A stretch of 32,000 nt of DNA from Parasynechococcus marenigrum WH 8102 (lineage in GTDB: Bacteria; Cyanobacteriota; Cyanobacteriia; PCC-6307; Cyanobiaceae): assembly GCF_000195975.1 (NCBI RefSeq), contig NC_005070.1, positions 2,370,001 to 2,402,000 of the forward strand, given 5' to 3'. Positions 8,556-23,349 of this stretch are shown in pieces. Under the pieces are notes generated by a model. That model had not been told where the DNA came from. It searched no databases and saw only the letters and a list, made by a program, of their open reading frames with translations. Position 1 is the stretch's first letter. Every line of letters begins with the position of its first letter. The position numbers and the translations under genes were made by a program.

Positions 8556-9214
8556 GGCAGAGAAACAAGCAGATCGATCAGGGCCTGGCGGGTGGGGGGA
8601 TGCTCCAGCAGAGGAGGCAATCCACCAGCTTCGCTCAATGCCTCCGTCATGAGGTTCGGGGCGAGGGTTAACGGGAGTGGGCGGGCGCAGGGATGGCGCT
8701 GCTGATACTTGGGCCAGGCATCAAAGGCAACCAATGGCAAGGCCAGGCGAGAGGAGAGCATCGCGAGGAAGCGATCCGCCACTCCCGGGCGCAGGGGGTG
8801 GTGCACCAGCACGGCATCACGGCGCTCAGACACCGGCAGTGCTGAGATCACCGCGTTCCACCAGGTGATCCAGGAGCCCAGAAAGGGAAGCAAACGCACG
8901 CTGGCCCCGGCGGCATGAAGCCTGTTGCGAATCGCCGGCACGTCCGTTCGGGCATGCGCTCCAGGCAACAGCAGCAACGGAACAATCCAAGAGGGTTGGG
9001 GAAGCGCCGACACGGGTTGTTCAGCCGTCAGCACCTCCAACTGAACGGGCGCCGATCGCCGCTGGGCCAGGAGATCCGGCAGGGAGGCCAAGCAGTCGGG
9101 AACGACACCGCCACTACGGCCATGCACCACCAGATGCAACCCTTGACGCCCCCGATCGGAAGCGTCATTCCGTAGCAATGGCCACGGATCAAAAAAAGAG
9201 CTATCTGATGTCAT
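8552..9214 (-). CDS. CbiX/SirB-like sirohydrochlorin chelatase (putative)
   Basis: LHLVVHGRSGG and LLLLPGAHARTDVP resemble the CbiX HGS and FLxxGxH blocks. It is start/stop-coupled to cobA and lies next to nirA, a siroheme enzyme. The ATG at 9212-9214 (MTSDSSFF) is preferred over the track start at 9259. Confidence 0.5.
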   Translation of the reverse strand: MTSDSSFFDPWPLLRNDASDRGRQGLHLVVHGRSGGVVPDCLASLPDLLAQRRSAPVQLEVLTAEQPVSALPQPSWIVPLLLLPGAHARTDVPAIRNRLHAAGASVRLLPFLGSWITWWNAVISALPVSERRDAVLVHHPLRPGVADRFLAMLSSRLALPLVAFDAWPKYQQRHPCARPLPLTLAPNLMTEALSEAGGLPPLLEHPPTRQALIDLLVSLP

Positions 9215-9774
9215 CGAGAAGTAATGACCTGGGGTAAGTACATGGCACCTCGCCAACAAAACGAACGTGCATCATTGGAAAGTCGTTTCTACCGGGCACA
9301 GACACGTCGGCGCTTTGACCTAAGCTCTACATTAATTGAAATTAAGAGTCCCAGTATGCGCAAAAGGGCAAAGCCGTACGACAAGAGTTACAGACGGCAA
9401 TACGAGCGGAATCGTAATTCCATCAACAGAACAACTTTTGAGTACGAACTAGAAAAGGACGTAGCCGCTTTGAAGACGGTTTGGCAAATGATCAGCTCGG
9501 GAGCTGCCCGCATGCTGAACAGAGTTTTACATCAGATTTAAATCTATAAAATGAATAGCATAGATCGCACAGGAAAAAGAATATAAAATCAACAGGGAAG
9601 CTGGGAGCCTAAAAAACCAACATTGTGCTAATATATTTCTTAAGTAGCTCGAGAAATCGAAGGTTACTTCACTATCGCACGCTTTCATTATTACGTAGCG
9701 ACAAAGGTCCCCGGGCCGATTAAACTGATCTACTACATTTTTTGATCGATCAGTCCGCCCTATTTTCATGAATC

Positions 9775-11316
9775 ATGACCATCAAAAACCAAGTCAACCC
9801 CTACTTCGCAGAAAAAAAATTGAATAAGATTGAAAAAAGTAAGTTGGAAAAAGATGGGCTTTTAGTAGGAAGCGAAATCGAAAAGTTTGCAAAAATTGGG
9901 TGGGAAAATATGGATGAAACCGACTTAAAACTCCGTCTGAAATGGTATGGAATGTTCTGGCGTCCGAAAACACCCGGAAAATTCATGCTAAGACTTAGAA
10001 TACCAAATGGTGTATTGACATCCAATCAAATACGAGTTGTAGCTTCAATAGTTGAACGTTATGGAGAAAATGGAAGCTGCGACATCACCACAAGGCAAAA
10101 CCTGCAACTTAGAGGAATACTATTATGCGATCTTCCCGAGATCCTTAGAAGACTGCGTGAAGCCGGACTAAGTAGCATCCAGTCGGGCTTTGATAATCCA
10201 CGAAACGTAACCGGCAATCCACTCGCAGGAATAGATCCGAACGAAATCGTCGATACGAGACCTTACACAACTAAATTGCAGAACTTTCTCACAAATAATT
10301 GTGAGGGAAATTCGGAATATTCCAACCTACCGAGAAAATGGAACACAGCAGTTGCAGGATCTAAAGACAATTTCCTTCTTCACAACGACATAGTGTTTCA
10401 TCCCGTTGAGAATAACGGCGTGATGGGTTTTAGCATCTGGATTGGAGGGATTTTATCTCCACAGATGAACGCATATGCATTTCCCATGAATGTATGGGTA
10501 TTACCTGACGAGATCTGCAACATTTTGGATACTGTGATTCGTCTCTGGAGAGACAATGGAGAAAGAGAGAAGAGAACCAAGGGACGTTTCCGCATGTATC
10601 TCGATGAGATAGGGCACGAGGAATTCCGCAGCCAAGTGGAAAAACTGTACGGAACACTCACTCCCGATCCAGGCTCAATATTCGAAAACTCTCCACGCTC
10701 TCACTTCGGCATTAATCAGCAGAAACAAGCCGGACTTTATTTTGCTGGCATACACGTGCCGGTCGGTCGCCTCACGGCAGAGGATCTACAAGATATCGCA
10801 ACAGCGAGTCTCAAATATGGAAATGGAGAAATTAGACTCACAGAAGACCAAAATATAATTATCACAGGTCTTACGAGTGAAAAAGTTGAAGAATTAAAGA
10901 CTGATACATTATTGCAGCGTTTCCCCCTAGCACCTAGCAATATTTCAGCAGGAACAGTGTCCTGCACGGGAAATACTTACTGTAGTTTTGCGCTTACCAA
11001 CACTAAAGACCAAGCCTTAAAAGCAGCAAAGGAACTTGACGAGGAGTTGAATCTACCTGAAGAGATAAAAGTTCACTGGACTGGCTGCCCAAATACATGT
11101 GGACAGGCTTATATGGGAGCAATAGGTTTAACAGGTACAAAGGCTAAAAATGCTGAAGGAGTAATGGGTGAAGGCTACACAATGACTATTGGTGGTTCAC
11201 AGGGTCGCAACCCAACTATTGGTCAAATCTATCGCAAAGCTATACCTGCGGCTGAAATCAAAACAGCCCTTAAGGAAGTACTTATTTCAAAATTTGGAGC
11301 TACAGAAAAGAAATAA
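9775..11316 (+). CDS. nirA: Ferredoxin-nitrite reductase NirA
   Basis: 513 aa with both siroheme/4Fe-4S cysteine clusters (VSCTGNTYCSFA and HWTGCPNTCGQAYM) and the N-terminal KLEKDG...LRLKWYGMFWRPKTPGKFMLRLRIPNG block typical of NirA. Confidence 0.9.
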   Translation: MTIKNQVNPYFAEKKLNKIEKSKLEKDGLLVGSEIEKFAKIGWENMDETDLKLRLKWYGMFWRPKTPGKFMLRLRIPNGVLTSNQIRVVASIVERYGENGSCDITTRQNLQLRGILLCDLPEILRRLREAGLSSIQSGFDNPRNVTGNPLAGIDPNEIVDTRPYTTKLQNFLTNNCEGNSEYSNLPRKWNTAVAGSKDNFLLHNDIVFHPVENNGVMGFSIWIGGILSPQMNAYAFPMNVWVLPDEICNILDTVIRLWRDNGEREKRTKGRFRMYLDEIGHEEFRSQVEKLYGTLTPDPGSIFENSPRSHFGINQQKQAGLYFAGIHVPVGRLTAEDLQDIATASLKYGNGEIRLTEDQNIIITGLTSEKVEELKTDTLLQRFPLAPSNISAGTVSCTGNTYCSFALTNTKDQALKAAKELDEELNLPEEIKVHWTGCPNTCGQAYMGAIGLTGTKAKNAEGVMGEGYTMTIGGSQGRNPTIGQIYRKAIPAAEIKTALKEVLISKFGATEKK

Positions 11317-11430
11317 TTATTTTATAAGAAATAAAACAAGTTATAAAGCAAAGTTGATCAACAGAGAAGAGTAAAGATAATATTGCAAAATTAAAAGAAT
11401 TGCAATAATTAGAGTATAGAAAAAAAGATC

Positions 11431-12357
11431 ATGCTAGGGTTAAAAGGTATAACAAAGAAAGTATCGAACTTAAATCAGATGGAGAATCTATATCACATTA
11501 GAGAAAGATTCTCAATTATTCATGATAACAAGAAAATAGGAATACAGATGAAATGGGAAGGTAAAAGAGAAAAACCTCCAATGCTAATGCTTCCGGCCTT
11601 AAGTACAATTTCAAGAAGCGATGAATGGCAGAGTTTTAAAGCAATAGTGACAGATAAATACCAATTAATAACAATTGATTGGCCTGGATTCGGCGAAAGT
11701 GATAAAAAAGATATACACTACAGCGGAAAAGTATTACAAAAAACACTTAGAAAAGCTATCAAAGCAATCCAGAGAAAAAATAATAAAAAGCTAACTATAG
11801 TTGCAGCTGGTCATAGTGCCTCAGTTGTACTTACACTAAAAGACAAGTACATCAATACAATAAAACAAGTTGTGCTAATTGCACCAACATGGAGAGGTCC
11901 ACTTCCAAGTATGACAGGATGGTCTCCTAAGAGGCTAAACATCATAAATGAAATAGTAAGACTTCCTATCATTGGTCCAATACTATACTTCATAAATACA
12001 ACAAAAGTGATTATAAGATTCATGATGAAAAGGCATGTATGGCTAAATAAGAATGACCTTGATAATGATAAAATACTCAGACTCCAAGTATTATCTCGAC
12101 AAAAGGGAGCACGATACGCAAGCGCAGCATTCGTAACAGGGAGTTTAGATATAGATAAAAATAAGAAGTGGTGGATATCAAATACAAAAAAGATTCAAGA
12201 AATGTCTACTCTTGTTATACCGAAGGATTCACCAAAAAAATCATTATCAGAGATGGAAGTACTCTCAGATAGCATTAAAGATATTTTATACGTTAGAGGT
12301 AGGCTAGGTTGCCACGAAGAATTCGGAGAAGAAATCGCAAAAAGATTATTCTACTAA
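11431..12357 (+). CDS. Alpha/beta-hydrolase-fold protein, function unknown
   Basis: It has IDWPGFGESD (a typical strand-loop motif after the oxyanion region), a nucleophile-elbow-like VAAGHSASV and a C-terminal GCHEE histidine. The start is uncertain (ATG 11431 or 11479). The 3' end overlaps the znuB 3' end by 12 nt. Confidence 0.5.
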   Translation: MLGLKGITKKVSNLNQMENLYHIRERFSIIHDNKKIGIQMKWEGKREKPPMLMLPALSTISRSDEWQSFKAIVTDKYQLITIDWPGFGESDKKDIHYSGKVLQKTLRKAIKAIQRKNNKKLTIVAAGHSASVVLTLKDKYINTIKQVVLIAPTWRGPLPSMTGWSPKRLNIINEIVRLPIIGPILYFINTTKVIIRFMMKRHVWLNKNDLDNDKILRLQVLSRQKGARYASAAFVTGSLDIDKNKKWWISNTKKIQEMSTLVIPKDSPKKSLSEMEVLSDSIKDILYVRGRLGCHEEFGEEIAKRLFY

Positions 12358-13176
12358 ATTGTATACACGAGAAAATATCAAAGAAAAAAGGAAAGCAAAG
12401 AATTGCAAGATTACAATCGAAGGACCTGAAGGTAGATTAAAGAAACCTGATAAAATAAGCCCAAACAGAGCACACAAACCGCCCAGCACCATAGAAAAAA
12501 CAATATAAGAACTAAACTTACGCGAAATAAGTCTACCAGCGCATGCAGGTATTACAACGAAAGCACTTATAAGCAATACACCAACAGACTTAATTGAAAC
12601 AGATACAACAATACCCAATAAAATGATGAAAGCAAGTTTATGGAATCTTGTGTTAATACCAATAGAGCCAGCCAAATCCTCATTAAGAGTTAAAAGAACA
12701 TGAGAACGAAGACTAAAGACAAGGTAGATAAAAGAAACAATAAAAAGGATCAATGTAATATATATATCTGATGCTGTAATACCAAGAATATCTCCAAAAA
12801 GCAACTGCTTAATGCTACCACTATAAGAGTTGATTTTACTTAAGGCAAGAACAGCTGCTGCTAGAGAGCTAGAATATACGATATTCAATAGTGCGTCGGT
12901 AGGCAAAGAACTGCTCTCAACTAGATTATTTACAAGAAATGCAAATATAATGGCAAAAGGAATAAGAACAAAAGTAGGATTCACATTTAAAAGGATACCT
13001 AGAGTTATACCGAGCAAGGCAGAATGCCCTAATGCATCACTAAAAAAAGCAAGTTGTCGGAGTACAGCAAAATAACCTATAAGCCCTCCTAAAGAACCAG
13101 TTAAAAAGCCACCAATTAATGCGCGGTGAATAAATGGCTCATCAAATAACTCAAAAAAAGTTGATAAATCACCCAC
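12346..13176 (-). CDS. znuB: Metal (zinc-type) ABC transporter permease, ABC-3 family
   Basis: 276-aa polytopic membrane protein (FIHRALIGGFLTGSLGGLIGYFAVLRQLAFFSDALGHSALLG is the ZnuB/MntB family N-terminal pattern). It overlaps znuC by 8 nt in an operon. Confidence 0.8.
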   Translation of the reverse strand: MGDLSTFFELFDEPFIHRALIGGFLTGSLGGLIGYFAVLRQLAFFSDALGHSALLGITLGILLNVNPTFVLIPFAIIFAFLVNNLVESSSLPTDALLNIVYSSSLAAAVLALSKINSYSGSIKQLLFGDILGITASDIYITLILFIVSFIYLVFSLRSHVLLTLNEDLAGSIGINTRFHKLAFIILLGIVVSVSIKSVGVLLISAFVVIPACAGRLISRKFSSYIVFSMVLGGLCALFGLILSGFFNLPSGPSIVILQFFAFLFSLIFSRVYNLVE

Positions 13177-13936
13177 GACATTGATGCTGATAAGAAACTA
13201 TATTGGGCCCATAGAGAACACTTAATCTTTCGGAAGTCAATGCAAGATTAGGTACACCTCGGCAGCACAAACGTCTATTTAAACCAAGTACTTGATCGCT
13301 ACTACGGAGAACCATATCAATATCGTGAGATATATGGAGGACAGTCCAACCTTCCTGCCGACGCAATTCAAATAACATTTTTTGAAAACGTTGAGTTGAA
13401 GGTATATCTAGACCAGCCTGAACTTCGTCCAAAACAAGAAGATCCCTCGGACGTACGATACAAAATGCAAGCATAACTCGCTTCAGTTCACCGCCAGAAA
13501 GTTCACTAAGAAGACGTCGTCTTAAATTAAAAGTATCGGTTCTTTCCAAAGATCGATGAACTAAAATCTTAGTATGGGAGTCACGCATGCGTAGAAAGGA
13601 CGAACAATTACTAAGTCCAAGTTGCACGAACTCAAATACGGAGAGGGGAAACTGACCCTGAAAAGAAAAATTCTGTGGAATATAAGAAATTCGCTCGCGT
13701 ATGGATTTCGGTAGATACCCAGCTTTATTCATTTTGGTGCCCATAATAGTGATGTCGCCTGAGACGCGCGGAATAAGACCCAACAAGGAGGCAACTAATG
13801 AACTCTTACCAGCACCATTAGGGCCAACTAAAGCTGTATCACTCTCAGCTAATAATTCAAAAGAAACATCATCTACAGCAACATTGGCACCCCTTCTTAC
13901 AGTAAGATTCTTAACAGAAGCAATTGGATATGACAT
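13169..13936 (-). CDS. znuC: Metal (zinc-type) ABC transporter ATPase
   Basis: Walker A GPNGAGKSS, ABC signature LSGGELKRV and Walker B LLVLDE are present. It lies between the permease and the binding-protein genes. Confidence 0.85.
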   Translation of the reverse strand: MSYPIASVKNLTVRRGANVAVDDVSFELLAESDTALVGPNGAGKSSLVASLLGLIPRVSGDITIMGTKMNKAGYLPKSIRERISYIPQNFSFQGQFPLSVFEFVQLGLSNCSSFLRMRDSHTKILVHRSLERTDTFNLRRRLLSELSGGELKRVMLAFCIVRPRDLLVLDEVQAGLDIPSTQRFQKMLFELRRQEGWTVLHISHDIDMVLRSSDQVLGLNRRLCCRGVPNLALTSERLSVLYGPNIVSYQHQCRG

Positions 13937-13939
13937 AGT

Positions 13940-14848
13940 TTAACCACCAAGAGAGAGAAGAAGATTGGACAAGTTATCCCGCATAAGGTCAAAATAGAGA
14001 GACTCGTCATACACAAAATCCCGTGAAATAGTTTCAATGGGATTGAATAGTGCTATTTTAATATTAAGATCACGTGCCAACGAATTGAAAGAATTGTTTC
14101 CATCTTGAGGCTCAGTTAAAAGAGCCTTTAAATCGGAGTCTCGAACAAGATTCGAAACTCGCTGTAAATCAACGGGGCTTGGATTGATATCTGGCAGATC
14201 AACTAAGTATTCAGCTTTTAATTGATATCGTTCAGCAAAATATGGTGCAAAGTCATGATAGGCGATAAATGATTTGCCCTGATAAGGCTCCAACTTGGAT
14301 AAAATTTCAGCATGCAATGCGAGCAGGTCATCCACATAAGCGGAGGCATTTAAAGTATAAACTTCACTACAAGCAGGGTTTAATTCCGCAAGAGCATCTT
14401 TAATAGTCTCAACCTGGCTAATAGCGCGTATAGGATCTAACCATATGTGAGGATTAGGATCAGAATCCGCGTTAGAGATATCAGTAGAAATGGTCTTGAT
14501 ACCAATACTAGTGTCAACAACGGATAATGTTGTACTCGCTGATGAAGAGATTAGCCTGTCTAAAAAAGTCTCCATTCCCAAGCCGTTAATAAAAAATATA
14601 TCAGCCTTGCCAATAGATAGAATGTCCTTAGGAGTTGATTGAAAATCGTGTGGTCCAATATTTGTGGGTATTAAAGCTTTGACATCACCGCATTCACCGG
14701 CTACTGCCCTAGCAAATAGTGTTATGGGAAGGAATGAGGTCATAATAGAAATTTTCTTAGACCTCTCAGGAGGCGTTGTGAGGGAGCCGCAAGAAACCAA
14801 AAATATTGAGGCTAGCGAGCCAGTAGCCCACTTACTGAAGCGCACCAT
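13940..14848 (-). CDS. znuA: Periplasmic metal-binding lipoprotein, ZnuA/TroA cluster A-I
   Basis: The signal has a lipobox (SIFLVSCGS). Ligand-position motifs are GPHDFQ, NPHIWLDP and AYHDFAPYF. The third ligand position is His, as I recall for Zn-type rather than Mn-type members. There is no long His-rich loop. Confidence 0.75.
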   Translation of the reverse strand: MVRFSKWATGSLASIFLVSCGSLTTPPERSKKISIMTSFLPITLFARAVAGECGDVKALIPTNIGPHDFQSTPKDILSIGKADIFFINGLGMETFLDRLISSSASTTLSVVDTSIGIKTISTDISNADSDPNPHIWLDPIRAISQVETIKDALAELNPACSEVYTLNASAYVDDLLALHAEILSKLEPYQGKSFIAYHDFAPYFAERYQLKAEYLVDLPDINPSPVDLQRVSNLVRDSDLKALLTEPQDGNNSFNSLARDLNIKIALFNPIETISRDFVYDESLYFDLMRDNLSNLLLSLGG

Positions 14849-14965
14849 GTAGGAGAAGCGAAGTCAAATACGATACGAAAAACCAAAGATATATTTGAAT
14901 CACTGAAAAAAAAAGGCAGTGTAAGCTACCTGGTATTAGTATAGTAGTTGATCACTCATCTAGTA

Positions 14966-16348
14966 ATGAAAGAAAAGCGAAAGGTTCCTGTCACCATACT
15001 TACTGGCTACCTTGGGGCAGGGAAAACCACACTGTTAAACAAGATCTTGAGAGAAGAGCACGGCAAAAAGATTGCAGTCATAGAAAACGAATACGGCGAA
15101 GTTGGAATTGATCAAGGACTCGTCATTAATGCAGACGAAGAGGTCTTTGAAATGTCTAATGGTTGCATTTGTTGCACGGTAAGAGGTGATCTGATAAGAG
15201 TCCTAGGCAATCTAATGAAACGTAGGGACAAATTTGATTACGTTTTAGTTGAAACGACCGGCCTCGCTGACCCAGGGCCGGTAGCACAAACTTTTTTTAT
15301 GGATGATGAAGTTAGAGATGAATTTACTCTTGATGGAATAGTGACGTTAGTAGATTCTGCTCACATTAATCAACAATTAGAACATAGCACTGAAAGTGCA
15401 GAGCAGGTCGCCTTCGCGGACGTACTCATACTCAATAAAACTGACTTAGTTTCCAAAAACGAAGTCAACGTACTTGAATCACGCCTTAGAGATATGAACA
15501 AAATGGCCCGTATACTGCGTTCAAAAGAAGCAGGGGTCGATGTTGAAGATGTCTTGAATCTTGGTGCATTTGATCTCCAGCAAACATTAGATAGACGTCC
15601 GACATTTCTCGAACCTGAATATCCGTTTGAGTGGACCGGAGTATATGAACTTAAGAAAGGAAACTACAGGCTTTATTTTGATGATGGACCTGATCCAACA
15701 ATGCTAATAACAGCAATAGAATTTAATAGTTCAAATGGAAAAGATCTTGACGGGTACGCCGAAGATTGTGTAAGAATATTTTCAAAAGAACCTAAACAAC
15801 TTATGCCAGGTGAAGCAATAAGTTTTAACGAGGTTATTGAATTACAATTACAAGATGCGGGTCAGAAGGCCTTTGAATTATACATAGATAATAAATCAAC
15901 TATAGGTCTCTTCACCCAACATACGGCAGAAGAATTCAATATAAGACTGGATGACAATAAGGATGATCAGACAAGAGATAAAAAATTTAGCAATATAACT
16001 AAGGGGATTGATACAAAGACCGAAAGAATATGGGTAGCTGAACACGAGCATGACGATGAAGTTGGATCTATTGCTCTAGAAAGCCTTGGCAACATTAATC
16101 CAGATAAATTAAACGATTGGATTTCAAAACTTCTCCGAGAAAAAGGAGTAGATATATTTAGAACCAAAGGATTTATCAGCTACGCTGAAGAATCTAGAAA
16201 AATTGTATTTCAAGGGGTCCATATGTTATTTACTGCAGAGCCTGGAAGCGAGTGGGGAAACGAGCCCAGGAAGAACCAACTTGTATTCATAGGCCGAAAT
16301 TTAGACGAGGATGCATTAAGGACTGAGTTTGAAAAATGTCTAGCATGA
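14966..16348 (+). CDS. COG0523 (CobW/ZigA/YeiR-like) G3E-family GTPase metallochaperone with ~150-aa internal insertion
   Basis: Motifs present: Walker A GYLGAGKTTLLN, metal-binding CICCTVRGD (CxCC), LVETTGLADP, NKTD, an acidic/His patch AEHEHDDE, and a CobW_C-like end (IFRTKGFISY...LVFIGRNLD). The ATG at 14966 is preferred over the TTG at 14948. It is divergent from znuA. Confidence 0.85.
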   Translation: MKEKRKVPVTILTGYLGAGKTTLLNKILREEHGKKIAVIENEYGEVGIDQGLVINADEEVFEMSNGCICCTVRGDLIRVLGNLMKRRDKFDYVLVETTGLADPGPVAQTFFMDDEVRDEFTLDGIVTLVDSAHINQQLEHSTESAEQVAFADVLILNKTDLVSKNEVNVLESRLRDMNKMARILRSKEAGVDVEDVLNLGAFDLQQTLDRRPTFLEPEYPFEWTGVYELKKGNYRLYFDDGPDPTMLITAIEFNSSNGKDLDGYAEDCVRIFSKEPKQLMPGEAISFNEVIELQLQDAGQKAFELYIDNKSTIGLFTQHTAEEFNIRLDDNKDDQTRDKKFSNITKGIDTKTERIWVAEHEHDDEVGSIALESLGNINPDKLNDWISKLLREKGVDIFRTKGFISYAEESRKIVFQGVHMLFTAEPGSEWGNEPRKNQLVFIGRNLDEDALRTEFEKCLA

Positions 16349-17403
16349 AAAGATCTAACAGCATCTTTCAAGATGGATGGTACAGTGAAATTAGCGAATA
16401 CGTAATAGCTTGTGACTGGGCACTCGAAAATAAGAATATTATTGCTGCAGATATAACAGGCAACATTTACTCTTTTGATGCAAAAACAGGGAAGTTACTA
16501 TACATGCAAAAAGACACTCACAACAAATCACTCTTAGATCTAGCAGTAAATCCCAACGGAAGCATATATGCAACTTGTGGCCAAAACGGCAAGGTTGATA
16601 TTAATGCGGCTTCAGATGGAAGCTTACTAAGTTCAAACTCATTAGGCAATGACTGGGTTGACAATATACAATGGACAAACAACGGAAAATTATTAGCCGG
16701 TAGCATTGGAAAGTTCGTACATGTGATTGATTCGTCAGGAAATCAATTATGGCGTTCCGATGAACTGACAAGTACTGTGTCAGCAATATATTGGTCAAAT
16801 AATAACGAATTAGCGATAGCAAGCTATGGCCAAGTGATTATTTACGATGTAAAAACCAATAAAGCTTGTCAAAGATTTGAGTGGAAGGGATCTCTTATAT
16901 CATTGGCATTGAGCCCAAACGGGGAAATTGTAGCTTGTGGAAGTCAAGACAATTCAGTACATTTTTGGCGACGAACTAATGGTAAAGACGCTGAAATGAC
17001 TGGTTATCCTGGCAAACCTAAAGATATTGTGTTCGATATTACGGGTCAATATTTAGCTACAGGGGGAAGCCCCCAAGTTACAGTATGGAACTTTAAAGAT
17101 AAGGGTCCTGAGGGAACAATTCCGGGACAACTTATACTTCATAATGAGCCGATAAGTTGCCTTAGCTTTGCTAACAGTAGCTCGTTATTAGCATCTGGTG
17201 CAAAAGATGGATCAATTGCAATTTGGAAATTAGATAAAAATGGAGATGGTGAGCCCATTGACAAGGTATCCATCAACTCGACGCCGACACGACTAAAATG
17301 GAAGAGAGACGATAATGCCTTTTTAGCTGCTAGCGACTCGGGGAAATTATTCTGCTGGGATATACCGTCTAAAAAAGGAGAAGGAATCGGATTCAAAAAC
17401 TAA
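16336..17403 (+). CDS. WD40-repeat beta-propeller protein
   Basis: 355 aa with repeated blades ending in W-x motifs (VHFWRR, VTVWNF, IAIWKL, LFCWDI) and GS/GG-rich turns. It overlaps the COG0523 3' end. The in-frame ATG at 16345 forms an ATGA overlap with the TGA stop at 16346-16348. Confidence 0.8.
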   Translation: MSSMKRSNSIFQDGWYSEISEYVIACDWALENKNIIAADITGNIYSFDAKTGKLLYMQKDTHNKSLLDLAVNPNGSIYATCGQNGKVDINAASDGSLLSSNSLGNDWVDNIQWTNNGKLLAGSIGKFVHVIDSSGNQLWRSDELTSTVSAIYWSNNNELAIASYGQVIIYDVKTNKACQRFEWKGSLISLALSPNGEIVACGSQDNSVHFWRRTNGKDAEMTGYPGKPKDIVFDITGQYLATGGSPQVTVWNFKDKGPEGTIPGQLILHNEPISCLSFANSSSLLASGAKDGSIAIWKLDKNGDGEPIDKVSINSTPTRLKWKRDDNAFLAASDSGKLFCWDIPSKKGEGIGFKN

Positions 17404-17748
17404 ATATATGACCGTTCGATATAATCCTTGAGGATCAAAGGAAGTTGATTAAGAAATTAGAAACTAATTCAAATGCGACTGGCCGGACTGTATAATGGTG
17501 TAAATCAATACAATACACGTTATGTATCAAACTCAATGGCTGGCCTCCGTCACTGACTCACTGCGGAAGCGTTATCTAAAGTCTCAAAAAGAAAATGACA
17601 AAAAAGCAACTACAGAATTGTTTAAGGAAGCGGTTTATTTAGGCATTAACATACGCAATTTTGATTAAGATTTTTAATGGGCCGACAATAGATTCCTTTA
17701 TAATAACATGAATGTATATAATATAGGAAGAGTCCTAGCCTATTGCCA

Positions 17749-18072
17749 ATGAATGAAGAATCAGCAAAAAGTAACGAAGACCAAGATATTTTTTCACAAT
17801 TAATGAAAGAAGTAAGTACACTTGCTTTATTAAAAGAATCAGGTGCAAGTATTATTCAAGGAAAGATTTTAATAATTATCGTTGGAATTGAAAAGGATGG
17901 AGAATTGTTAAAGGGCAAAGAGATACAACCTAAATATTGCAATATAAGCAATGAAGAAGAATTCCAAGAATTTATTAAGGGTAATTACAAAAATGTTGAT
18001 ACTTTATATGTAAGATACTTTAGACCCGGAGACATAGAATTAAGTGAAATTACTAAATACATAATAAAATAA
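17749..18072 (+). CDS. Hypothetical protein (107 aa from the ATG)
   Basis: A stop-free run of about 109 codons in roughly 30% GC DNA is unlikely by chance. The protein has an acidic N-terminus and a hydrophobic core (ILIIIVGI). No recognisable motif. Confidence 0.35.
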   Translation: MNEESAKSNEDQDIFSQLMKEVSTLALLKESGASIIQGKILIIIVGIEKDGELLKGKEIQPKYCNISNEEEFQEFIKGNYKNVDTLYVRYFRPGDIELSEITKYIIK

Positions 18073-18112
18073 AAGAGCTACTTTAGGCGGGTTCAACAAA
18101 CACAAAGTGTAA

Positions 18113-18979
18113 CTAAGAAGACTCTTCAACTGCTCTTGTTTCGCGAAGGAGATGATCCTCAAGTTGGAGTTTGATATCAATGAAGAGAGAATCTTTTTCT
18201 ATAATATTACGGATTCTGGGCCTTGGCAAAGGGACATCTATAATATCTGCAATATTTGCAGATGGTCCACTTGACATAAGTACAATTTTGTCAGACATTA
18301 ACAATGCTTCTTCAATACTATGTGTAATTAAAAGAGCTGTGACTCTATTTTTCTCCCATATTTTTAACACTTCTTCTTGCAAATAGGACCTTGTAAGGGC
18401 ATCAAGGGCTCCAAAAGGCTCGTCCATAAGTAACATAGACGGATTAATAGACAAAGCTCGTGCAATAGCAACTCTCTGCTTCATACCACCTGAAATTTGC
18501 TTTGGAAACTTGTTCATTGAGCGTTCTAACCCAACCATATTCAAAAAGTATCTGGCTTTTTCACGCCTCTGTGAGGTACTTAGTTCTGGACAGGCCGTCT
18601 CTAAGGCATATTCGATGTTGCCTGCGGCGGTAAGCCAGGGCATCAGTGCGTAGTTCTGAAAAATTATGCCTCTGTCTGGACCAGGGCCAACCAGTGGCTT
18701 GCCTTCGATGAAAATTTCACCAGACGTGAAATCATCTAATCCTGCTAAAAGATTCAAAAGCGTTGATTTACCACAACCCGAAGGGCCAATCAAAGAGACA
18801 AAAGTGTTCTTTTTAATATCGAGATTCACACCTTCAAGAGCAACATAGTTCTCAGTTTTTTTGTTAAAAAGAGAAGGTCGAGAAATTGGGAAAACTTTGC
18901 TTAGATTTACAATTTCAACATGAGATTCATGTTCCTTGTAAGAAATGGAATCAACTGAACTGGGAACAGATTTAGTCAT
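18113..18979 (-). CDS. cynD: Cyanate/nitrate/bicarbonate-family ABC transporter ATPase (CynD-like)
   Basis: Walker A GPSGCGKST, signature ISGGMKQRV and Walker B LLLMDEP are present. It overlaps the permease gene by 4 nt. The substrate is assigned from the cynS context and from the known cynABDS clusters of marine picocyanobacteria. Confidence 0.75.
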   Translation of the reverse strand: MTKSVPSSVDSISYKEHESHVEIVNLSKVFPISRPSLFNKKTENYVALEGVNLDIKKNTFVSLIGPSGCGKSTLLNLLAGLDDFTSGEIFIEGKPLVGPGPDRGIIFQNYALMPWLTAAGNIEYALETACPELSTSQRREKARYFLNMVGLERSMNKFPKQISGGMKQRVAIARALSINPSMLLMDEPFGALDALTRSYLQEEVLKIWEKNRVTALLITHSIEEALLMSDKIVLMSSGPSANIADIIDVPLPRPRIRNIIEKDSLFIDIKLQLEDHLLRETRAVEESS

Positions 18980-19755
18980 GAATCGTAATTGAATCGAAGT
19001 TGCAAAATCTCAAAGATTTGATCCAGTACATAACCAGTTATTCCTATGATTATAATTGCTACAAATATGTTAGCTACATATAAATTGTTCCATTCATTCC
19101 ATATAAAATATCCGATACCCGTGCCTAGAAGCATTTCAGCAGCAACTATTACAAGCCATGCTGTACCCATTGAAATTCTCATCCCAGCTAAAATATTTGG
19201 CATTACTGCAGGTAAGATGACTTTGGTAATGGTATTTGTTTTGGAAGCACCTAATGACTTTGCAACTTTTAAGACATCAGAATCTACGGATTGAACACCA
19301 ATTGCGGTATTAATTAAAGTCGGCCAGATGCTTGTAATAAAAATGACAAAAATACCGGTAACTTCTGAATTTCTAAATACGAATAAGCCAATGGGCAGCC
19401 AGGCAAGCGGTGAGACCGGTTTCAGTAGTTGTACATAAGGATCAACAGAAGACTTAACGGTTTTGGAAACACCAACAAAGAGACCGACTGGAATTGCAAC
19501 AACCATTGCAAGTGTGTAACCAATTAGAACTCTTCTTAAGCTTATAAGTAAATTGAAACCAATCCCTAAATCGTTAGGACCGTTATCAAAAAATGGATCT
19601 GATATCCACCATAATAATTCCTGAAAGGTCTTTAAAGCCCCTGGAAAATTAGGAATTAAATTGGTACTGGCTATAATTTCCCAGACAACGCAAAAAGAGA
19701 GGAGGCTAGATCCTGAGATCAGTAACGATCTCAGGATTGTTGACTTTGTAGACAT
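18976..19755 (-). CDS. cynB: NrtB/CynB-family ABC transporter permease
   Basis: 259-aa membrane protein with the binding-protein-dependent permease pattern (VAKSLGASKTNTITKVILPAVMPNILAGMRISMGTAW, an EAA-like loop). It lies between cynA and cynD. Confidence 0.8.
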   Translation of the reverse strand: MSTKSTILRSLLISGSSLLSFCVVWEIIASTNLIPNFPGALKTFQELLWWISDPFFDNGPNDLGIGFNLLISLRRVLIGYTLAMVVAIPVGLFVGVSKTVKSSVDPYVQLLKPVSPLAWLPIGLFVFRNSEVTGIFVIFITSIWPTLINTAIGVQSVDSDVLKVAKSLGASKTNTITKVILPAVMPNILAGMRISMGTAWLVIVAAEMLLGTGIGYFIWNEWNNLYVANIFVAIIIIGITGYVLDQIFEILQLRFNYDS

Positions 19756-19760
19756 ACAGT

Positions 19761-21440
19761 CTATACACCGTCTCTATCAATTTGTTTGCTGACATAGCCC
19801 AACGGATCAGTAGGGTCAAAGCTGTCGTATGCAAGCTTCTCAGTCTTGAACGAACGGGAGGGAGGATTGAAACCCAGCTCCCTCTCCAAAGATTGAGCTT
19901 CATTTGTTAGGAATATTGCAGCACTATTAGCATTAAAGTCACCAGCTTTAATTGCGTCAGCAGCTCCTCCAAGGTCCCATCGTACAAGTTGAGACTGAAT
20001 CCAATGTGAAAAGCTCTGCCAAGGATAAGGTTTAAAATCTATTCTGTCAGGAACATTTTTCTTATTGCCCAAGCCGTCATCGAACTTGCCTGTCAAAACA
20101 GCTTCAACGACTTTAGTCGGTTGGTTTAGGAAGGCGCGGCCAGAAATGTATTTCGCAATTTCAGATCTGTTAGTAGGATTTGTTGCATAATTCGCAGCTT
20201 CAATAATAGATTTATTGATGGCTTTAAAAGTATTTGGATGCTTGTTAATCCAGGGTTCACCCGCAGCAAAAGCGCAGCATGGATGACCAACCCAGAGATC
20301 CTTAGTTAGAAGGTGAATAAAACCAACACCTTCAAACACAGCTCTTTGATTAAATGGATCAGGCATCAAATATGCATCGATATCACCTGCAACCATCTGG
20401 GCAACACTATCCGGTGGTGGTACAGGGCGAATTTGTACATCCTTATCAGGATCAACTCCACCCTTAGCGAGGTAATATCTAAGTAGTAAATTATGCATCG
20501 AGTATGGGAATGGTACTCCGAATACAAAGCCTTTCATATCTGCGGCAGATTTAACTTTATCCTTGTGGCGATTAGCTACAGTTATTGCTTGTCCGTTGAT
20601 ATTTTCAATACTGGCTAATTTGACGCTGAATGGAGAAGTTCCCAATCCCAAAGTCATAGAAATAGGCATTGGAGCGAGCATGTGATAAGCATCAAGCTCA
20701 CCTGCAATGGCCGAATCGCGAACAGCTCCCCAACTTGGCATTTTCACAACCTTACATTTCAAACCATTAGATTTATAGAAACCCATAGGTTCTGACATGA
20801 TTATCGGTGTTGCACATGTAATTGGAATGAATCCAATCTTCAAGTTAGTTTTCTCTAATTTACCGCCGGCATGACCTGCTGCATGAGCATCTTGAGTATC
20901 TAAGCCTGCGCTATTGGCAATTGTTATCATGGCCGCACCAGCAGCCAATCCTTTGAGAAATGACCTTCTTCCAAAAGGGGAACTAGAGTGAATAGAGGCA
21001 AAGAATTCACCTGCTTGAGGACCAAAAGCTGCTGCCATTGCTTGGTCTAATCCACCGGCTTCTTCAGCTAGTGCCCGTAGAAGCTTTTCCTTGGCAGGAT
21101 CACCTTGAGAAGCGTTCTTATAAAAAAGAATCTCTCTAAGCTCCGCTGATGAAACAGCCTCAGCGACTTCTACAGCATCGGCTTTAATCAAACCCATTTT
21201 ATAAAAATCATCCATCAAATCCTCAGGATCTGAAGGCATATCTTCGGTAAAATCTTGATGATCTGGACTAAATGGCCGGCATTCTACACAGAAGCAAAAC
21301 AAACCATGACCGGTTTGTGGTTGAAAGGAAGGAGAACTTGATGTAGCTTCTGTAGTGCTATTACATTGAAGCTGTGACTTAAGAATCTCAGCGGCAGTCT
21401 GAGTTGTTGTGGATGCATGCGAGGTGAAAAGATTCGCCAC
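19761..21440 (-). CDS. cynA: NrtA/CmpA/CynA-family periplasmic substrate-binding protein with long N-terminal extension (GTG start in track)
   Basis: Residues from about 190 to 559 read as an NrtA-like binding protein (KIGFIPITCATPII, AYLMPDPFN, GHPCCAFA). A perfect Tat motif, GRRSFLKGLAAGAAM, sits at residues 157-170 rather than at the N-terminus. The frame stays open for the 134 AT-rich codons between the GTG and Met135 (21036-21038). Confidence 0.8.
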   Translation of the reverse strand: MANLFTSHASTTTQTAAEILKSQLQCNSTTEATSSSPSFQPQTGHGLFCFCVECRPFSPDHQDFTEDMPSDPEDLMDDFYKMGLIKADAVEVAEAVSSAELREILFYKNASQGDPAKEKLLRALAEEAGGLDQAMAAAFGPQAGEFFASIHSSSPFGRRSFLKGLAAGAAMITIANSAGLDTQDAHAAGHAGGKLEKTNLKIGFIPITCATPIIMSEPMGFYKSNGLKCKVVKMPSWGAVRDSAIAGELDAYHMLAPMPISMTLGLGTSPFSVKLASIENINGQAITVANRHKDKVKSAADMKGFVFGVPFPYSMHNLLLRYYLAKGGVDPDKDVQIRPVPPPDSVAQMVAGDIDAYLMPDPFNQRAVFEGVGFIHLLTKDLWVGHPCCAFAAGEPWINKHPNTFKAINKSIIEAANYATNPTNRSEIAKYISGRAFLNQPTKVVEAVLTGKFDDGLGNKKNVPDRIDFKPYPWQSFSHWIQSQLVRWDLGGAADAIKAGDFNANSAAIFLTNEAQSLERELGFNPPSRSFKTEKLAYDSFDPTDPLGYVSKQIDRDGV

Positions 21441-21462
21441 AAATCGGGTTCATACTTCTTTA

Positions 21463-21505
21463 TTTATAGTTGGAAAGCGAACGCGGATGTTGTATCAGGT
21501 GATAC
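21463..21505 (-). promoter_or_regulatory. NtcA-activated (class II type) promoter of cynA: GTA-N8-TAC box plus -10 element
   Basis: TGTATCAGGTGATACT is at 21491-21506, with GTA at 21492-21494 and TAC at 21503-21505. On the minus strand, TATAAA (21468-21463) begins 24 nt after the box. The cynA GTG at 21440 lies about 20 nt further on. Confidence 0.6.
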
Positions 21506-21694
21506 TCATAGCAAAACTTGTCGGAATTGTCTCACTTGCTACATTAATCGGCTGTTCAATTTATTAGAGAGAAAGGTAGTTCTCCAGATAAAATTTGTTG
21601 GATGTCCTAAACAGTATGCGCTTAAACTGAAAATTATACTTATTGCAACAATGAGTGAATCTTTATTATTAGGAATTTATTATATTTGAGAGAA

Positions 21695-21711
21695 GATCTG
21701 CTGCGCAGATC
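21695..21711 (-). terminator. Short hairpin downstream of tatA (candidate terminator)
   Basis: GATCTGC-tgc-GCAGATC is a 7-bp stem lying 13 nt after the tatA stop on the minus strand. It is followed there by TTCTCTC, which is only partly U-rich. Confidence 0.3.
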
Positions 21712-21724
21712 AATCGCCTTAAGA

Positions 21725-21928
21725 TTAAAGGGTATCTTCTTTAGGATCTTTGTCCTCCAAGACAACTACATCAATTTCTCTCTTAAATTCATCAGAGGCG
21801 GATCTAAAACCGCCCAAATATTTAGCCAAATATTTTCCTACTTTGGGCAATTTATTAGGCCCTAAGACTAATAAAAAAATAAGGCATATAATTAGTATCT
21901 CAGGAAAACCTAATCCAAAAAAGCTCAT
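21725..21928 (-). CDS. tatA: Twin-arginine translocase subunit TatA/E
   Basis: The 67-aa product MSFFGLGFPEILIICLIFLLVLGPNKLPKVGKYLAKYLGGFRSASDEF fits the TatA pattern (G..E, TM helix, GP.KLP..G, amphipathic F+ region). Confidence 0.75.
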   Translation of the reverse strand: MSFFGLGFPEILIICLIFLLVLGPNKLPKVGKYLAKYLGGFRSASDEFKREIDVVVLEDKDPKEDTL

Positions 21929-21948
21929 TTGTGATTGACCGCTAATTT

Positions 21949-21976
21949 ATTATAGCTGTGACGGTAAGTTCATCAA
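21949..21976 (-). promoter_or_regulatory. Candidate sigma70-type promoter for tatA (TTGATG-N16-TATAAT)
   Basis: On the minus strand TATAAT lies at 21954-21949 and TTGATG at 21976-21971, with a 16-nt spacer. The -10 element ends 20 nt before the tatA ATG. AT-rich context makes chance matches likely. Confidence 0.3.
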
Positions 21977-22073
21977 GTTGATTTTAGACATATTTAAGAT
22001 TACCAATTTTGCTTTTGTAAAATTACTATCGAACGGTATACGTGCATAATGTAAATTCATGCAGCAGGCAATA

Positions 22074-22102
22074 TAATTGATTGATTTGCAAGCAATCAAT
22101 TA
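22074..22102. repeat. Perfect 10-bp inverted repeat with 9-nt spacer (TAATTGATTG-atttgcaag-CAATCAATTA), function unknown
   Basis: Read directly from lines 22021 and 22081. It lies in the AT-rich non-coding stretch between tatA and the HEAT-repeat gene. No flanking T-run, so it is not a typical terminator. Confidence 0.9.
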
Positions 22103-22601
22103 GCTGGCACATTCTCCTAATATTCGGCTTCAAAAGTATATGCTCGTTTGTTGTATTCTCTTAATTCATTGCTTATTTAACCACTCAGACTTCTAAAATA
22201 GTATAAGGATATATAACTTTATCTCAAATGACTTATTACAATCAAAAAAGAGTCGGGTTCTGATTGGTGCAGACGTAAACGTAAAATACCGACGGGTTGA
22301 TACAAAATCGTAATTGTTAACCGACAACGAATTCTTAGTAGAACTGGATACAATTTAAATACAATAATTGAAGTTTAGATAAATTCGGCATACATCATGT
22401 GTCAAGAGCGAGTCGTAATCATTTACCTAGGTAACCATAAATGAAAAATCATACGCTCAGACTCAGCAAACCTAAAATAGGGAAAATGATATGTGATATA
22501 TTTAATCGGTACCAAGACTATATAGTAGACTTGTTGTGTTCGTTTCTACACAATGAAGAATTACATCTTGCACCAAAAAAAACTACTAGCGCTAAACAAC
22601 C

Positions 22602-23327
22602 ATGAAGGATAACGAATCAGATCTGTGGGAAAGACTCGGAAATTCACGTAAGGTTCCATTGGATCCTCGTTGGTTAGAAAATGTTTATTCGCCCAACCTT
22701 GCTACTGATCTGCGGCTAGCTCTCTGTGAAAAAATGGGTATGCTTGCAGATCATGGCTGGCCGATTATTGAACATCTACTGCAACGCTATGGCGACATGC
22801 CTGAATTGGTGATGGCCGCAGGACTCTGCCATCAAATTGAGGCCCGTGAATGGTTACTGGAACTGCTCAAGCGCAGCAATGATAATGAAAAACTTCGACT
22901 AACTGCAGTTCAATCGCTTAGTTGTTGGGGTGCTGAAGTTCCCGAAGCAATCGTCACTCATTGCTTACATCATCCTGGTCAAAGTTATCGACTCGCTGGA
23001 CTTCAATTGCTGGAATTTCGCTCACATCTTCTAACAGATCACCAACTCTTGGATTACTGTAATGAAGCACTCAACGATTTTCGGGATTCAGTTGTTATTG
23101 AAGCAGTCCGTATAATTCAGCGTCGTGACAGTAAAGAAATCTGCAAACGATTATTTTGTTTGTGTCAAGAAGACTCTGACGAAGTCGCATTTACCGCACT
23201 CAGAGCTCTTAGCTGTATAGCATCCGAAAACAGCAAGAGATATTTACTGAAACTTAGTAAAACCCTAAAAAGTGAATCAAGACGGTCATTTGCCCAAAAA
23301 AAACTTAACGAACAGTTTAGAACCTAA
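22602..23327 (+). CDS. HEAT-like (PBS-lyase/NblB-type) repeat protein, function unknown
   Basis: 241 aa with recurring helical-repeat signatures (RLTAVQSLSCWG, YRLAGLQLLEF, VVIEAVRIIQRRD, VAFTALRALSCIA). It is on the opposite strand to the surrounding cyn genes. G+C is somewhat higher than the rest of the island (lines 22801 at 53%, 23101 at 37%). Confidence 0.55.
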   Translation: MKDNESDLWERLGNSRKVPLDPRWLENVYSPNLATDLRLALCEKMGMLADHGWPIIEHLLQRYGDMPELVMAAGLCHQIEAREWLLELLKRSNDNEKLRLTAVQSLSCWGAEVPEAIVTHCLHHPGQSYRLAGLQLLEFRSHLLTDHQLLDYCNEALNDFRDSVVIEAVRIIQRRDSKEICKRLFCLCQEDSDEVAFTALRALSCIASENSKRYLLKLSKTLKSESRRSFAQKKLNEQFRT

Positions 23328-23349
23328 AGCCCAATAAGAATTGGGCTTT
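23326..23349. terminator. Hairpin between convergent genes (candidate bidirectional terminator)
   Basis: AAAGCCCAA-taagaa-TTGGGCTTT is a 9-bp stem that starts inside the HEAT-gene stop codon and lies 23 nt from the cynS stop. The A/T runs in the stem arms give U-tracts on both strands. Confidence 0.5.

What the first reader, a model, noticed from the sequence alone, without database searches (positions are those of the whole stretch)
14849..17403. COG0523 GTPase with a ~150-residue insertion, start/stop-coupled to a WD40 propeller and divergent from znuABC
The COG0523 protein has all G3E motifs and the CxCC metal site. Between the GTPase domain (ending near LNLGAFDLQQ) and the CobW_C-like end (from about HDDEVGSIALE) lies roughly 150 residues (EYPFEWTGVYELKKGNYRLYFDDGPDP...LFTQHTAEEFNIRLDD...AEHEH). 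This is far longer than the linker in YjiA/YeiR-size members as I recall them.

Its stop overlaps the start of a 7-blade-like WD40 gene: ATGA at 16345-16348, or a 13-nt overlap from 16336. That implies co-translation at fixed stoichiometry. The pair shares a 117-nt divergent spacer with znuA, the layout typical of Zur-regulated COG0523 zinc chaperones. A dedicated WD40 partner for such a chaperone (client, adaptor or scaffold) is not something I know to be characterised.
Basis: partly seen in the sequence, partly recalled or inferred. Interest (0 to 1): 0.65.

Follow-up and report, generated by a model that had tools for sequence, protein, structure and literature searches.

The report
Metal chaperone GTPase with WD40 partner
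A zinc-importer gene cluster encodes a metal-chaperone GTPase carrying an extra inserted domain, followed by an overlapping WD40 partner gene; this arrangement was published in 2012, but I find the inserted domain is an uncatalogued module that recurs in many metal-transport proteins.

Summary
The COG0523 gene (14966-16348) has all G3E motifs. It carries a ~136-residue insert exactly in the linker between the GTPase domain and the CobW_C domain. Its stop overlaps the start of a WD40 gene, and znuABC lies divergently across a 117-nt spacer.

It is not new. Haas 2009 and Barnett 2012 described this COG0523 branch ("1a") in Prochlorococcus and Synechococcus, with the ~150-aa non-His insert and the WD-40 neighbour. 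They left the function open.

What I add:
- **WD40 linkage.** The WD40 gene follows COG0523 in 77 of 77 informative species loci, including SAR86 and SAGs labelled Alphaproteobacteria. A start codon sits at a 13-nt overlap.
- **The insert is a domain.** It models confidently as a beta-sandwich (pLDDT 87). It has no Pfam or NCBIfam family and no close PDB fold.
- **It is mobile.** The same module occurs in ZnuA (62 of 80 neighbouring loci, mostly Prochlorococcus), CusB-like, CDF and CbtA proteins, and as lipoproteins in Cbi operons. It is usually flanked by His-rich stretches, with conserved E, W, D, H and E.
- **No Zur box** is found in this window's spacer.

Most likely this is a metal-scarcity operon (probably zinc), with the insert as a metal-handling module and the WD40 as an adaptor. 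Neither role has been tested.

The parts
14966..16348 (+). COG0523 (G3E) GTPase gene, 460 aa, 'branch 1a' type with an inserted module
   Evidence: Pfam cobW and CobW_C. Motifs. YjiA alignment. There are 8000+ homologues, the closest at 97% and 95% identity and Prochlorococcus at about 69%.
15605..16012 (+). Codons for the inserted segment (residues ~214-349). The conserved beta-sandwich module is residues ~218-330, with conserved E222, W223, D243, H319 and E323.
   Evidence: Gap in the YjiA alignment. The AF2 model of residues 208-344 has pLDDT 87.4 and pTM 0.77. Conservation across 197 non-redundant copies. No Pfam or NCBIfam match. No PDB fold neighbour at E<=0.001.
16336..17403 (+). WD40 beta-propeller gene (355 aa from ATG 16336, 352 aa from ATG 16345). 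It overlaps the COG0523 stop by 13 or 4 nt.
   Evidence: Pfam WD40 and propeller families. Best PDB sequence matches are canonical WD40 proteins such as 2YMU, PkwA and WDR5. The junction is conserved in 81 loci.
14849..14965 (.). 117-nt divergent spacer between znuA and COG0523. It has no recognisable Zur box. It holds a conserved hairpin/palindrome at 14914-14931.
   Evidence: Comparison with L001.
13940..14848 (-). znuA, a cluster A-I metal-binding protein (302 aa). It has Zn-type H/H/H/E positions, no His-rich loop and no copy of the module.
   Evidence: Pfam ZnuA E 2e-61. Alignment to YcdH and AdcA. The module HMM gives no hit.
12346..13936 (-). znuC (13169-13936) and znuB (12346-13176), in an operon with znuA
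   Evidence: ORFs. The orthologous L001 genes carry ABC_tran and ABC-3.

Best explanation
This is a metal-scarcity cassette: a ZnuABC importer read one way, and a COG0523 metallochaperone GTPase plus a WD40 propeller read the other way as one tightly coupled transcription unit.

**Shown**
- The COG0523 protein is an intact G3E GTPase.
- Its interdomain linker, the position where many other COG0523 proteins carry a His-rich stretch, is occupied by a ~125-residue beta-sandwich module that models confidently on its own.
- The same module occurs in extracytoplasmic and cytoplasmic metal-handling proteins, usually embedded in His/Asp/Glu-rich stretches.
- Its only strongly conserved polar residues are E222, D243, H319 and E323, next to W223.
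- The WD40 gene is always the next gene.

**Inferred**
- The module is a metal-binding or metal hand-off unit. It would take the place of, or work with, a His-rich linker by holding the ion that the GTPase cycle delivers.
- The WD40 propeller is the protein-protein adaptor or client platform that gives the chaperone its target.
- The metal is most probably Zn(II). ZnuA here has Zn-type H-H-H-E positions, and zur sits in the cluster in 53 of 80 related loci. Co(II) remains possible.
For: - **Intact G3E GTPase.** Motifs and domains are present, and the insert sits exactly in the linker.
- **Module reach.** A phmmer search of the insert against 1.84 billion representatives gave 122 hits. Pfam scans of these representatives found cobW/CobW_C in 37, ZnuA in 3, CusB-like HlyD_D23 in 2, CDF in 1 and CbtA in 1. 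His-rich flanks are visible in the sequences.
- **Standalone forms.** Profile hits include lipoproteins in Firmicutes. One sits inside a CbiQ-CbiO-X-CbiM operon.
- **ZnuA neighbours.** The ZnuA ORF next to COG0523 carries the module in 62 of 80 loci, and as tandem copies in 6.
- **Fold.** The module model has pLDDT 87.4, and the module stays at 84-93 even in a poor full-length model.
- **Conservation.** Across 197 non-redundant copies: E 95%, W 97%, D 90%, H 97%, E 94%.
- **WD40 linkage.** The WD40 gene is downstream in 77 of 77 informative loci, across Prochlorococcus, Synechococcus, SAR86, Alphaproteobacteria-labelled SAGs and Porticoccaceae. A start codon sits at the 13-nt overlap, or an ATG lies within 20 nt, in nearly all of 81 loci.
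- **Zinc.** ZnuA ligand positions align with AdcA and YcdH.
- **Literature.** Zur represses the znuABC cluster in WH8102 (PMC9337993). COG0523 proteins are linked to zinc limitation (PMC2770081, PMC11672702).
Against: - No metal binding has been measured, and I had no model coordinates, so I could not check whether E222, D243, H319 and E323 cluster in space.
- One His plus three carboxylates is not a classic high-affinity Zn site.
- No Zur box or zur gene is in this window.
- Some relatives pair the cassette with CbiM-type (Co/Ni) transporters. The Prochlorococcus ZnuA-like protein has unresolved specificity (PMC8786288).
- The module and the WD40 are separable. L009 has the module without a WD40 nearby. 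Barnett 2012 reports WD-40 neighbours for short-linker branch-1b proteins.
- No interface could be modelled.
Confidence: 0.55

Rival explanations
1. The insert is a protein-protein docking domain rather than a metal site. It would recruit the WD40 propeller or the ZnuBC importer to the GTPase.
For: - It is a beta-sandwich, a common interaction fold.
- It co-occurs with the WD40 gene in all 77 informative loci.
- The conserved set of E, D, H and E is not a canonical Zn site.
Against: - The same module sits in periplasmic ZnuA, periplasmic CusB-like proteins, Gram-positive lipoproteins, CbtA loops and a cytoplasmic CDF tail. These proteins cannot share one protein partner. What they share is the metal and the His-rich flanks.
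- L009 has the module without a WD40 nearby.
Confidence: 0.15
2. The cassette serves cobalt (or another non-zinc metal) rather than zinc. The importer would scavenge Co(II), and COG0523-WD40 would allocate it.
For: - Related insert-bearing COG0523-WD40 pairs lie next to CbiM/ABC_tran genes.
- The standalone module sits in a CbiMQO operon, and a CbtA fusion exists.
- No Zur box is in this window.
- The metal specificity of the Prochlorococcus ZnuA-like SBP is unresolved, and it is linked to cobalt uptake (PMC8786288).
- COG0523 proteins sit at the Zn/Co crossroads in Cupriavidus (PMC11340326).
Against: - The window ZnuA aligns with Zn-type H-H-H-E ligand positions of AdcA and YcdH.
- zur lies in the cluster in 53 of 80 related loci.
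- A 1-mismatch Zur box lies upstream of the MIT9303 COG0523.
Confidence: 0.2
3. The WD40 gene is simply a conserved operon passenger with an unrelated function. The start/stop overlap would be a by-product of the conserved COG0523 C-terminal K-C-L codons.
For: - The -13 start codon is formed by the AAA/AAG TGT codons for K-C. It varies ATG/GTG/TTG with the preceding codon.
- No interaction evidence exists.
Against: - Adjacency is kept in 77 of 77 informative loci, across lineages whose WD40 proteins are only 37-47% identical to the window's and across at least two phyla. It is also kept in the CbiM-linked variants.
- Residues between the -13 start and the next ATG are conserved at the protein level (F-x-P-x-G in the two Prochlorococcus loci L003 and L004), so translation probably starts inside the COG0523 gene.
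Confidence: 0.1

Closest known systems
'Branch 1a' COG0523 of Prochlorococcus and Synechococcus WH8102 (Barnett et al. 2012, PMC3323870); prokaryotic members of COG0523 subfamily 5 (Haas et al. 2009, PMC2770081)
   Same: It has the ~150-aa non-His insert between the GTPase and C-terminal domains, a WD-40 gene next door and znuABC linkage. The window protein is about 69% identical to Prochlorococcus members.
   Different: This copy belongs to a separate, long-branched clade with Synechococcus sp. AG-670-A05. It lies in a low-GC island. It has no zur gene or Zur box nearby, and its ZnuA lacks both the His-rich loop and the module.
Characterised zinc-linked COG0523 chaperones: ZNG1 (eukaryotes), ZigA (Acinetobacter), ZagA/YciC (Bacillus), YjiA/YeiR (E. 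coli)
   Same: It has the G3E GTPase core with CxCC, a CobW_C domain and genomic linkage to zinc import.
   Different: Those proteins have a short or His-rich linker, and none has a known WD40 partner. NCBIfam scores fall below the equivalog cut-offs: ZigA 195 against 600, and YjiA-type PRK11537 250 against 361.
His-rich loop of ZnuA, and accessory zinc-capture proteins or domains (ZinT, the AdcA C-terminal domain, the AztD propeller)
   Same: In ZnuA proteins the module occupies the position of the His-rich loop and is flanked by His-rich runs. This suggests an accessory metal-capture role.
   Different: There is no sequence or fold similarity to ZinT or AztD. The window WD40 is a canonical cytoplasmic WD40 with no signal peptide, not an AztD-type periplasmic propeller (PMC6689063).

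Membership tests
COG0523 / G3E P-loop GTPases | P-loop GxxGxGK[ST] | tested here: met
   GYLGAGKTT, residues 14-22
COG0523 / G3E P-loop GTPases | Walker B with the G3E glutamate (ExxG), and NKxD | tested here: met
   ETTG at 96 and NKTD at 157
COG0523 / G3E P-loop GTPases | GCxCC motif and a CobW_C C-terminal domain | tested here: met
   GCICC at 66. PF07683 covers 367-459, E 4e-24.
COG0523 'branch 1a' (Barnett 2012) | About 150 aa of non-His-rich insert between the two domains | tested here: met
   Residues 214-349 are absent from YjiA. The insert holds a single histidine (H319); the EHEH run at 359-362 lies outside it.
COG0523 'branch 1a' (Barnett 2012) | A WD-40 repeat gene immediately downstream | tested here: met
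   16336-17403, overlapping the stop. Seen in 77 of 77 informative related loci.
COG0523 'branch 1a' (Barnett 2012) | Location in a znuABC and/or zur cluster | tested here: met
   znuABC lies divergently adjacent. There is no zur gene in the window, whereas zur is present in 53 of 80 related loci.
Zur-regulated zinc chaperone | A Zur box in the promoter region | tested here: not met
   TGATAATNATTATCA has no match with 3 or fewer mismatches in 14849-14965. The best match has 6 mismatches, against 1 mismatch in MIT9303. A lineage-specific box cannot be excluded.
Zur-regulated zinc chaperone | Induction under Zn limitation; GTP-dependent Zn binding or transfer to a client | not testable with these tools
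   This needs transcriptomics and biochemistry.
ZigA / YjiA equivalogs (NCBIfam) | Score above the curated equivalog cut-off | tested here: not met
   ZigA 195 against 600, PRK11537 250 against 361, CobW 195 against 332
WD40 beta-propeller | WD40 repeats above the Pfam gathering score, spanning a whole propeller | tested here: met
   PF00400 scores 80.3 against 27. Propeller families match residues ~17-347. The best PDB sequence hits are WD40 proteins. I did not count the blades.
AztD-type periplasmic zinc-chaperone propeller | Signal peptide and periplasmic location; AztD family membership | tested here: not met
   The N-terminus MSSMKRSNSIFQDGWYSE has no hydrophobic signal. The top 60 PDB hits are canonical WD40 proteins, not AztD. 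I did not inspect the remaining 418 hits.
Zn-type cluster A-I SBP (ZnuA/AdcA) | His/His/His plus Glu/Asp ligand positions | tested here: met
   PHD, PHIW, YHDF and NPIE align with the corresponding positions of YcdH and AdcA. The ligand identities come from my knowledge of AdcA and ZnuA structures.
Zn-type cluster A-I SBP (ZnuA/AdcA) | A His-rich loop | tested here: not met
   The query has a deletion where YcdH has EHEEHDHGEHEHSHA.

The most novel reading that the evidence does not exclude
The insert defines a previously uncatalogued, widely distributed metal-binding or metal-relay domain (signature F-E-W ... GPD ... T-[QE]-H-x-x-E-F). Bacteria would plug it into importers (ZnuA, CbtA, Cbi-operon lipoproteins), exporters (CusB-like, CDF) and the COG0523 chaperone. 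In Prochlorococcus the same module on both sides of the membrane (ZnuA outside, COG0523 inside) would form a matched capture-and-allocation pair, with the WD40 propeller as the first dedicated bacterial COG0523 adaptor.
Probability: 0.35. Interest if true: 0.7.

Novelty: new member of a known kind. Interest (0 to 1): 0.5.

Why it matters
How COG0523 chaperones choose clients is an open question. Only a few partners are known, such as ZNG1-METAP1. Marine picocyanobacteria live at extremely low zinc and cobalt concentrations.

A COG0523 that always comes with one specific WD40 gene is a ready-made system for finding an adaptor or client. A compact module shared between the periplasmic binding protein and the cytosolic chaperone gives a concrete, mutable target (E222, D243, H319, E323) for testing how metal is captured and handed on.

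The module also offers a new annotation handle for several hundred metal-transport proteins that currently have an unannotated region.

Tried and rejected
- **Zur box.** Scans with the Anabaena/RegPrecise-type 7-1-7 consensus found nothing in the spacer. The only inverted repeat found there (TCAAATA/TATTTGA) is not conserved in L001.
- **Fold search.** Foldseek of the module model against the PDB gave no hit at E<=0.001. The best was E 0.055 with TM<=0.40 (generic sandwiches, GOLD domain, CBMs). A profile search against PDB sequences found nothing.
- **Family scans.** Pfam and NCBIfam scans of the module at E<=10 gave only noise.
- **ZepA.** I considered ZepA (PMC10957091) as the module's identity and rejected it. 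It has a different motif (H-x-H-[FY]-H) and a two-domain architecture.
- **AztD.** I considered AztD as the WD40's identity and rejected it.
- **Full-length model.** The COG0523 model was poor (pLDDT 55.6, pTM 0.40), so I draw no conclusion on domain packing.
- **Genome scan.** The first scan, with the diverse alignment A1, failed for lack of a conserved stretch. I redid it with A3.
- **Artefact readings.** An artefact, intein or mobile-element origin for the insert is rejected. The insert is in frame and conserved in at least 571 genome stretches.
Full report
**1.

The ORF list and the junction sequences show three things:
- znuA lies on the minus strand and ends its coding region at 14848.
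- A COG0523 gene runs on the plus strand from ATG 14966 to TGA 16346-16348.
- A WD40 gene has two in-frame ATGs, at 16336 and 16345, which overlap that stop by 13 or 4 nt.

The spacer 14849-14965 is 117 nt.

The COG0523 protein has the P-loop (GAGKT), GCICC, the G3E Walker B motif (ETTG) and NKTD. Pfam places cobW at residues 8-184 and CobW_C at 367-459. Against the only solved COG0523 found by sequence search of the PDB, E. coli YjiA, residues 7-213 and 350-455 align to YjiA 4-213 and 210-313. About 136 residues are therefore inserted exactly at the interdomain junction.

The downstream protein is a canonical WD40 propeller. PF00400 scores 80 bits, and the best PDB sequence hits are 2YMU, PkwA and WDR5. 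It has no signal peptide.

**2. It is already in the literature as an uncharacterised association.**

Haas et al. 2009 state that prokaryotic members of COG0523 subfamily 5 cluster with WD40-repeat genes and with znuABC. Barnett et al. 2012 describe "branch 1a" COG0523 proteins of Prochlorococcus and Synechococcus WH8102. They report:
- a strong link to znuABC/zur clusters;
- co-localisation with a WD-40 gene of unclear significance;
- inserts of about 150 aa that are not His-rich, with 4-6 predicted beta strands, possibly a domain of their own, and with no InterPro match.

Later work that I could read does not mention the WD40 partner or the insert. This covers the WH8102 Zur study (PMC9337993) and the part of the 2024 Chemical Reviews metallostasis review held in the library, which includes its COG0523 section.

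**3. Conservation of the pair.**

The protein has at least 8000 homologues. Prochlorococcus proteins of 445-462 aa align over their full length at about 69% identity. Gene neighbourhoods in MIT9303, a low-light Prochlorococcus and an independent assembly close to the window all show znuABC, COG0523 and WD40.

A scan of one genome per GTDB species found at least 571 stretches encoding the insert. I examined the best 80:
- All 80 have the GTPase domain and the module.
- 77 have a WD40 orthologue directly downstream. The other three contigs end before that point.
- The set includes SAR86 (one on a 647-kb contig), six single-cell genomes labelled Alphaproteobacteria, a Porticoccaceae genome and a Polyangiaceae MAG.

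The cassette is therefore shared across phyla in marine plankton.

In 81 junctions, a start codon (ATG in 62, otherwise mostly GTG or TTG) lies at the 13-nt overlap. The window clade adds the ATGA overlap. One caveat applies. This codon is formed by the codons of the conserved C-terminal K-C-L motif, so its conservation is only weak evidence for selected translational coupling. Tight co-transcription is nonetheless certain.

Two CbiM-linked variants (CbiM ... ABC ATPase - COG0523 with insert - WD40) also keep the pair. One locus has the insert-bearing COG0523 without a WD40 nearby.

**4. What the insert is.**

A phmmer search of residues 210-360 against 1.84 billion cluster representatives gave 122 hits. 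Pfam scans of these showed the architectures below.

| Partner domain | Representatives | Position of the module |
|---|---|---|
| cobW / CobW_C | 37 | interdomain linker |
| ZnuA | 3 | at the His-rich-loop position |
| CusB-like membrane-fusion (HlyD_D23) | 2 | N-terminal, periplasmic |
| CDF exporter | 1 | cytoplasmic C-terminus |
| CbtA | 1 | residues ~56-170, ahead of the main CbtA match |
| TPR protein | 1 | C-terminal part |

In nearly all of these non-COG0523 contexts the module is bracketed by His-rich runs.

A profile search added a family of 160-230-aa "hypothetical" lipoproteins of Firmicutes. In a Dehalobacterium the gene sits between cbiO and cbiM.

The ZnuA gene next to COG0523 in a low-light Prochlorococcus carries the module at residues 163-279 (E 5e-26). 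Among the 80 species loci, 62 have the module in the neighbouring ZnuA ORF, and 6 have two tandem copies. The window's own ZnuA lacks it.

AlphaFold2 on residues 208-344 with a 45-sequence alignment gives a confident model: pLDDT 87.4, pTM 0.77, eight or nine strands and one long helix. Foldseek finds no PDB neighbour at E<=0.001, and TM is at most 0.40. No Pfam, NCBIfam or PDB sequence match exists.

Across 197 non-redundant copies the strongly conserved positions are F-E-W-x-G, G, Y, D (in GPD), L, and T-x-H-x-x-x-E-F. Only four of these are polar: E222 (95%), D243 (90%), H319 (97%) and E323 (94%), in window numbering.

**5. Mechanism.**

Two facts are shown. The module is a mobile domain whose only common context is transition-metal transport or allocation, on both sides of the membrane. 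In COG0523 it occupies the site where other family members have a His-rich stretch.

From this I infer that it binds or relays the metal ion. The alternative, a protein-docking role, would need one partner common to periplasmic, surface-lipoprotein and cytoplasmic hosts.

The WD40 is inferred to be the adaptor or client platform. The evidence is purely genomic: invariant adjacency across lineages whose WD40 proteins are only 37-47% identical to the window's, and long invariant blocks in the propeller.

The metal is probably zinc:
- The window ZnuA aligns with the H/H/H/E ligand positions of AdcA and YcdH.
- zur is present in 53 of 80 related clusters.
- A 1-mismatch Zur box precedes the MIT9303 gene.

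Cobalt cannot be excluded, given the Cbi and CbtA contexts and the unresolved specificity of the Prochlorococcus ZnuA-like protein (PMC8786288).

In this window there is no zur gene and no recognisable Zur box; the best match has 6 mismatches. Zur control here is unsupported.

**6. What failed.**

The full-length model was of low confidence, although the module stayed at pLDDT 84-93. I could obtain neither an interface nor the geometry of the conserved residues.

**7. Verdict.**

The feature is real and the description is accurate. The gene pair is a new, divergent member of a described but functionally unknown group. The added value is that the insert is an uncurated, widespread metal-homeostasis module shared with ZnuA and other transporters. 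That makes both the module and the WD40 partner directly testable.

I rate interest as moderate (0.5). The novelty of the finding as written is low. The module result may be new, but I cannot rule out that it has been described in papers outside the searchable library.

Noticed in passing
window 9300-24200 (compare 1-9000 and 24200-32000): A ~15-kb block at 35-44% GC sits in flanks at 56-66% GC. The block holds nirA, an alpha/beta hydrolase, znuBCA, COG0523, WD40, a cynABD-like transporter, a HEAT-repeat gene and cynS. The flanks hold narB, moeA, an epimerase and cobA on one side, and a trpD-like gene, an MFS nitrate permease, ppk and a sigma factor on the other. The independent assembly L001 (GCA_902618505.1, proteins ~95% identical) shows the same GC step, so it is a real island and not a chimera. 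The cassette clade (window, L001, Synechococcus sp. AG-670-A05) is equidistant from the Prochlorococcus and proteobacterial copies.
   Followed up: partly
L004 6091-7617; L015-L092 (for example L034 4428-6293, L063 3921-5786, L070 4413-6284): The Prochlorococcus ZnuA-like binding protein encoded next to COG0523 is 500-620 aa. It carries one or two tandem copies of the same module as the COG0523 insert, flanked by long His/Asp runs. This holds in 62 of 80 loci, with tandem copies in 6.
   Followed up: yes
L016, L032 (SAR86); L025, L026, L030, L033, L042, L060 (Alphaproteobacteria-labelled SAGs); L082 (Porticoccaceae); L048; L081 (Polyangiaceae MAG): The znuABC-COG0523(insert)-WD40 cassette occurs in marine heterotrophic bacteria. 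Their GTPase domains are 73-82% identical to the window's. This suggests horizontal spread within the plankton gene pool. Mislabelling of some SAGs cannot be excluded, but L032 lies on a 647-kb SAR86 contig.
   Followed up: partly
window 14914-14931 (minus strand): A hairpin, AGGTAGCTTACACTGCCT, is followed by a T8 run in the znuA-COG0523 spacer. In L001 the equivalent sequence contains the perfect palindrome AGCTTAAGCT. It may be an operator or an attenuator. It is not a Zur-type box.
   Followed up: no
L006/L007 6001-6567 (Dehalobacterium sp.): A standalone 188-aa module lipoprotein is encoded between cbiO and cbiM of a CbiMQO-type cobalt/nickel ECF transporter operon.
   Followed up: partly
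L008 6647-8852: A ZIP-family transporter is fused to the cobW GTPase domain (466 aa). The module and CobW_C follow in shifted frames, probably because of a frameshift-prone long-read assembly. This would be a ZIP-COG0523(insert) fusion.
   Followed up: no
L011 2860-7551; L012 2915-7363: An insert-bearing COG0523 plus WD40 lies downstream of CbiM and an ABC ATPase instead of ZnuABC. The genes are fragmented by frameshifts.
   Followed up: no
window 17743-18072 (+): A 109-aa ORF just downstream of the WD40 gene has no Pfam or NCBIfam match. A 107-aa gene is called at the same relative position in L001 (12780-13103).
   Followed up: no
window 19761-21440 (-): The NMT1_2 (cyanate/nitrate-type) binding protein ORF is 559 aa, with a twin-arginine signal only at residues 158-174. 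Either the true start is about 150 codons downstream, or there is an unusual N-terminal extension.
   Followed up: no
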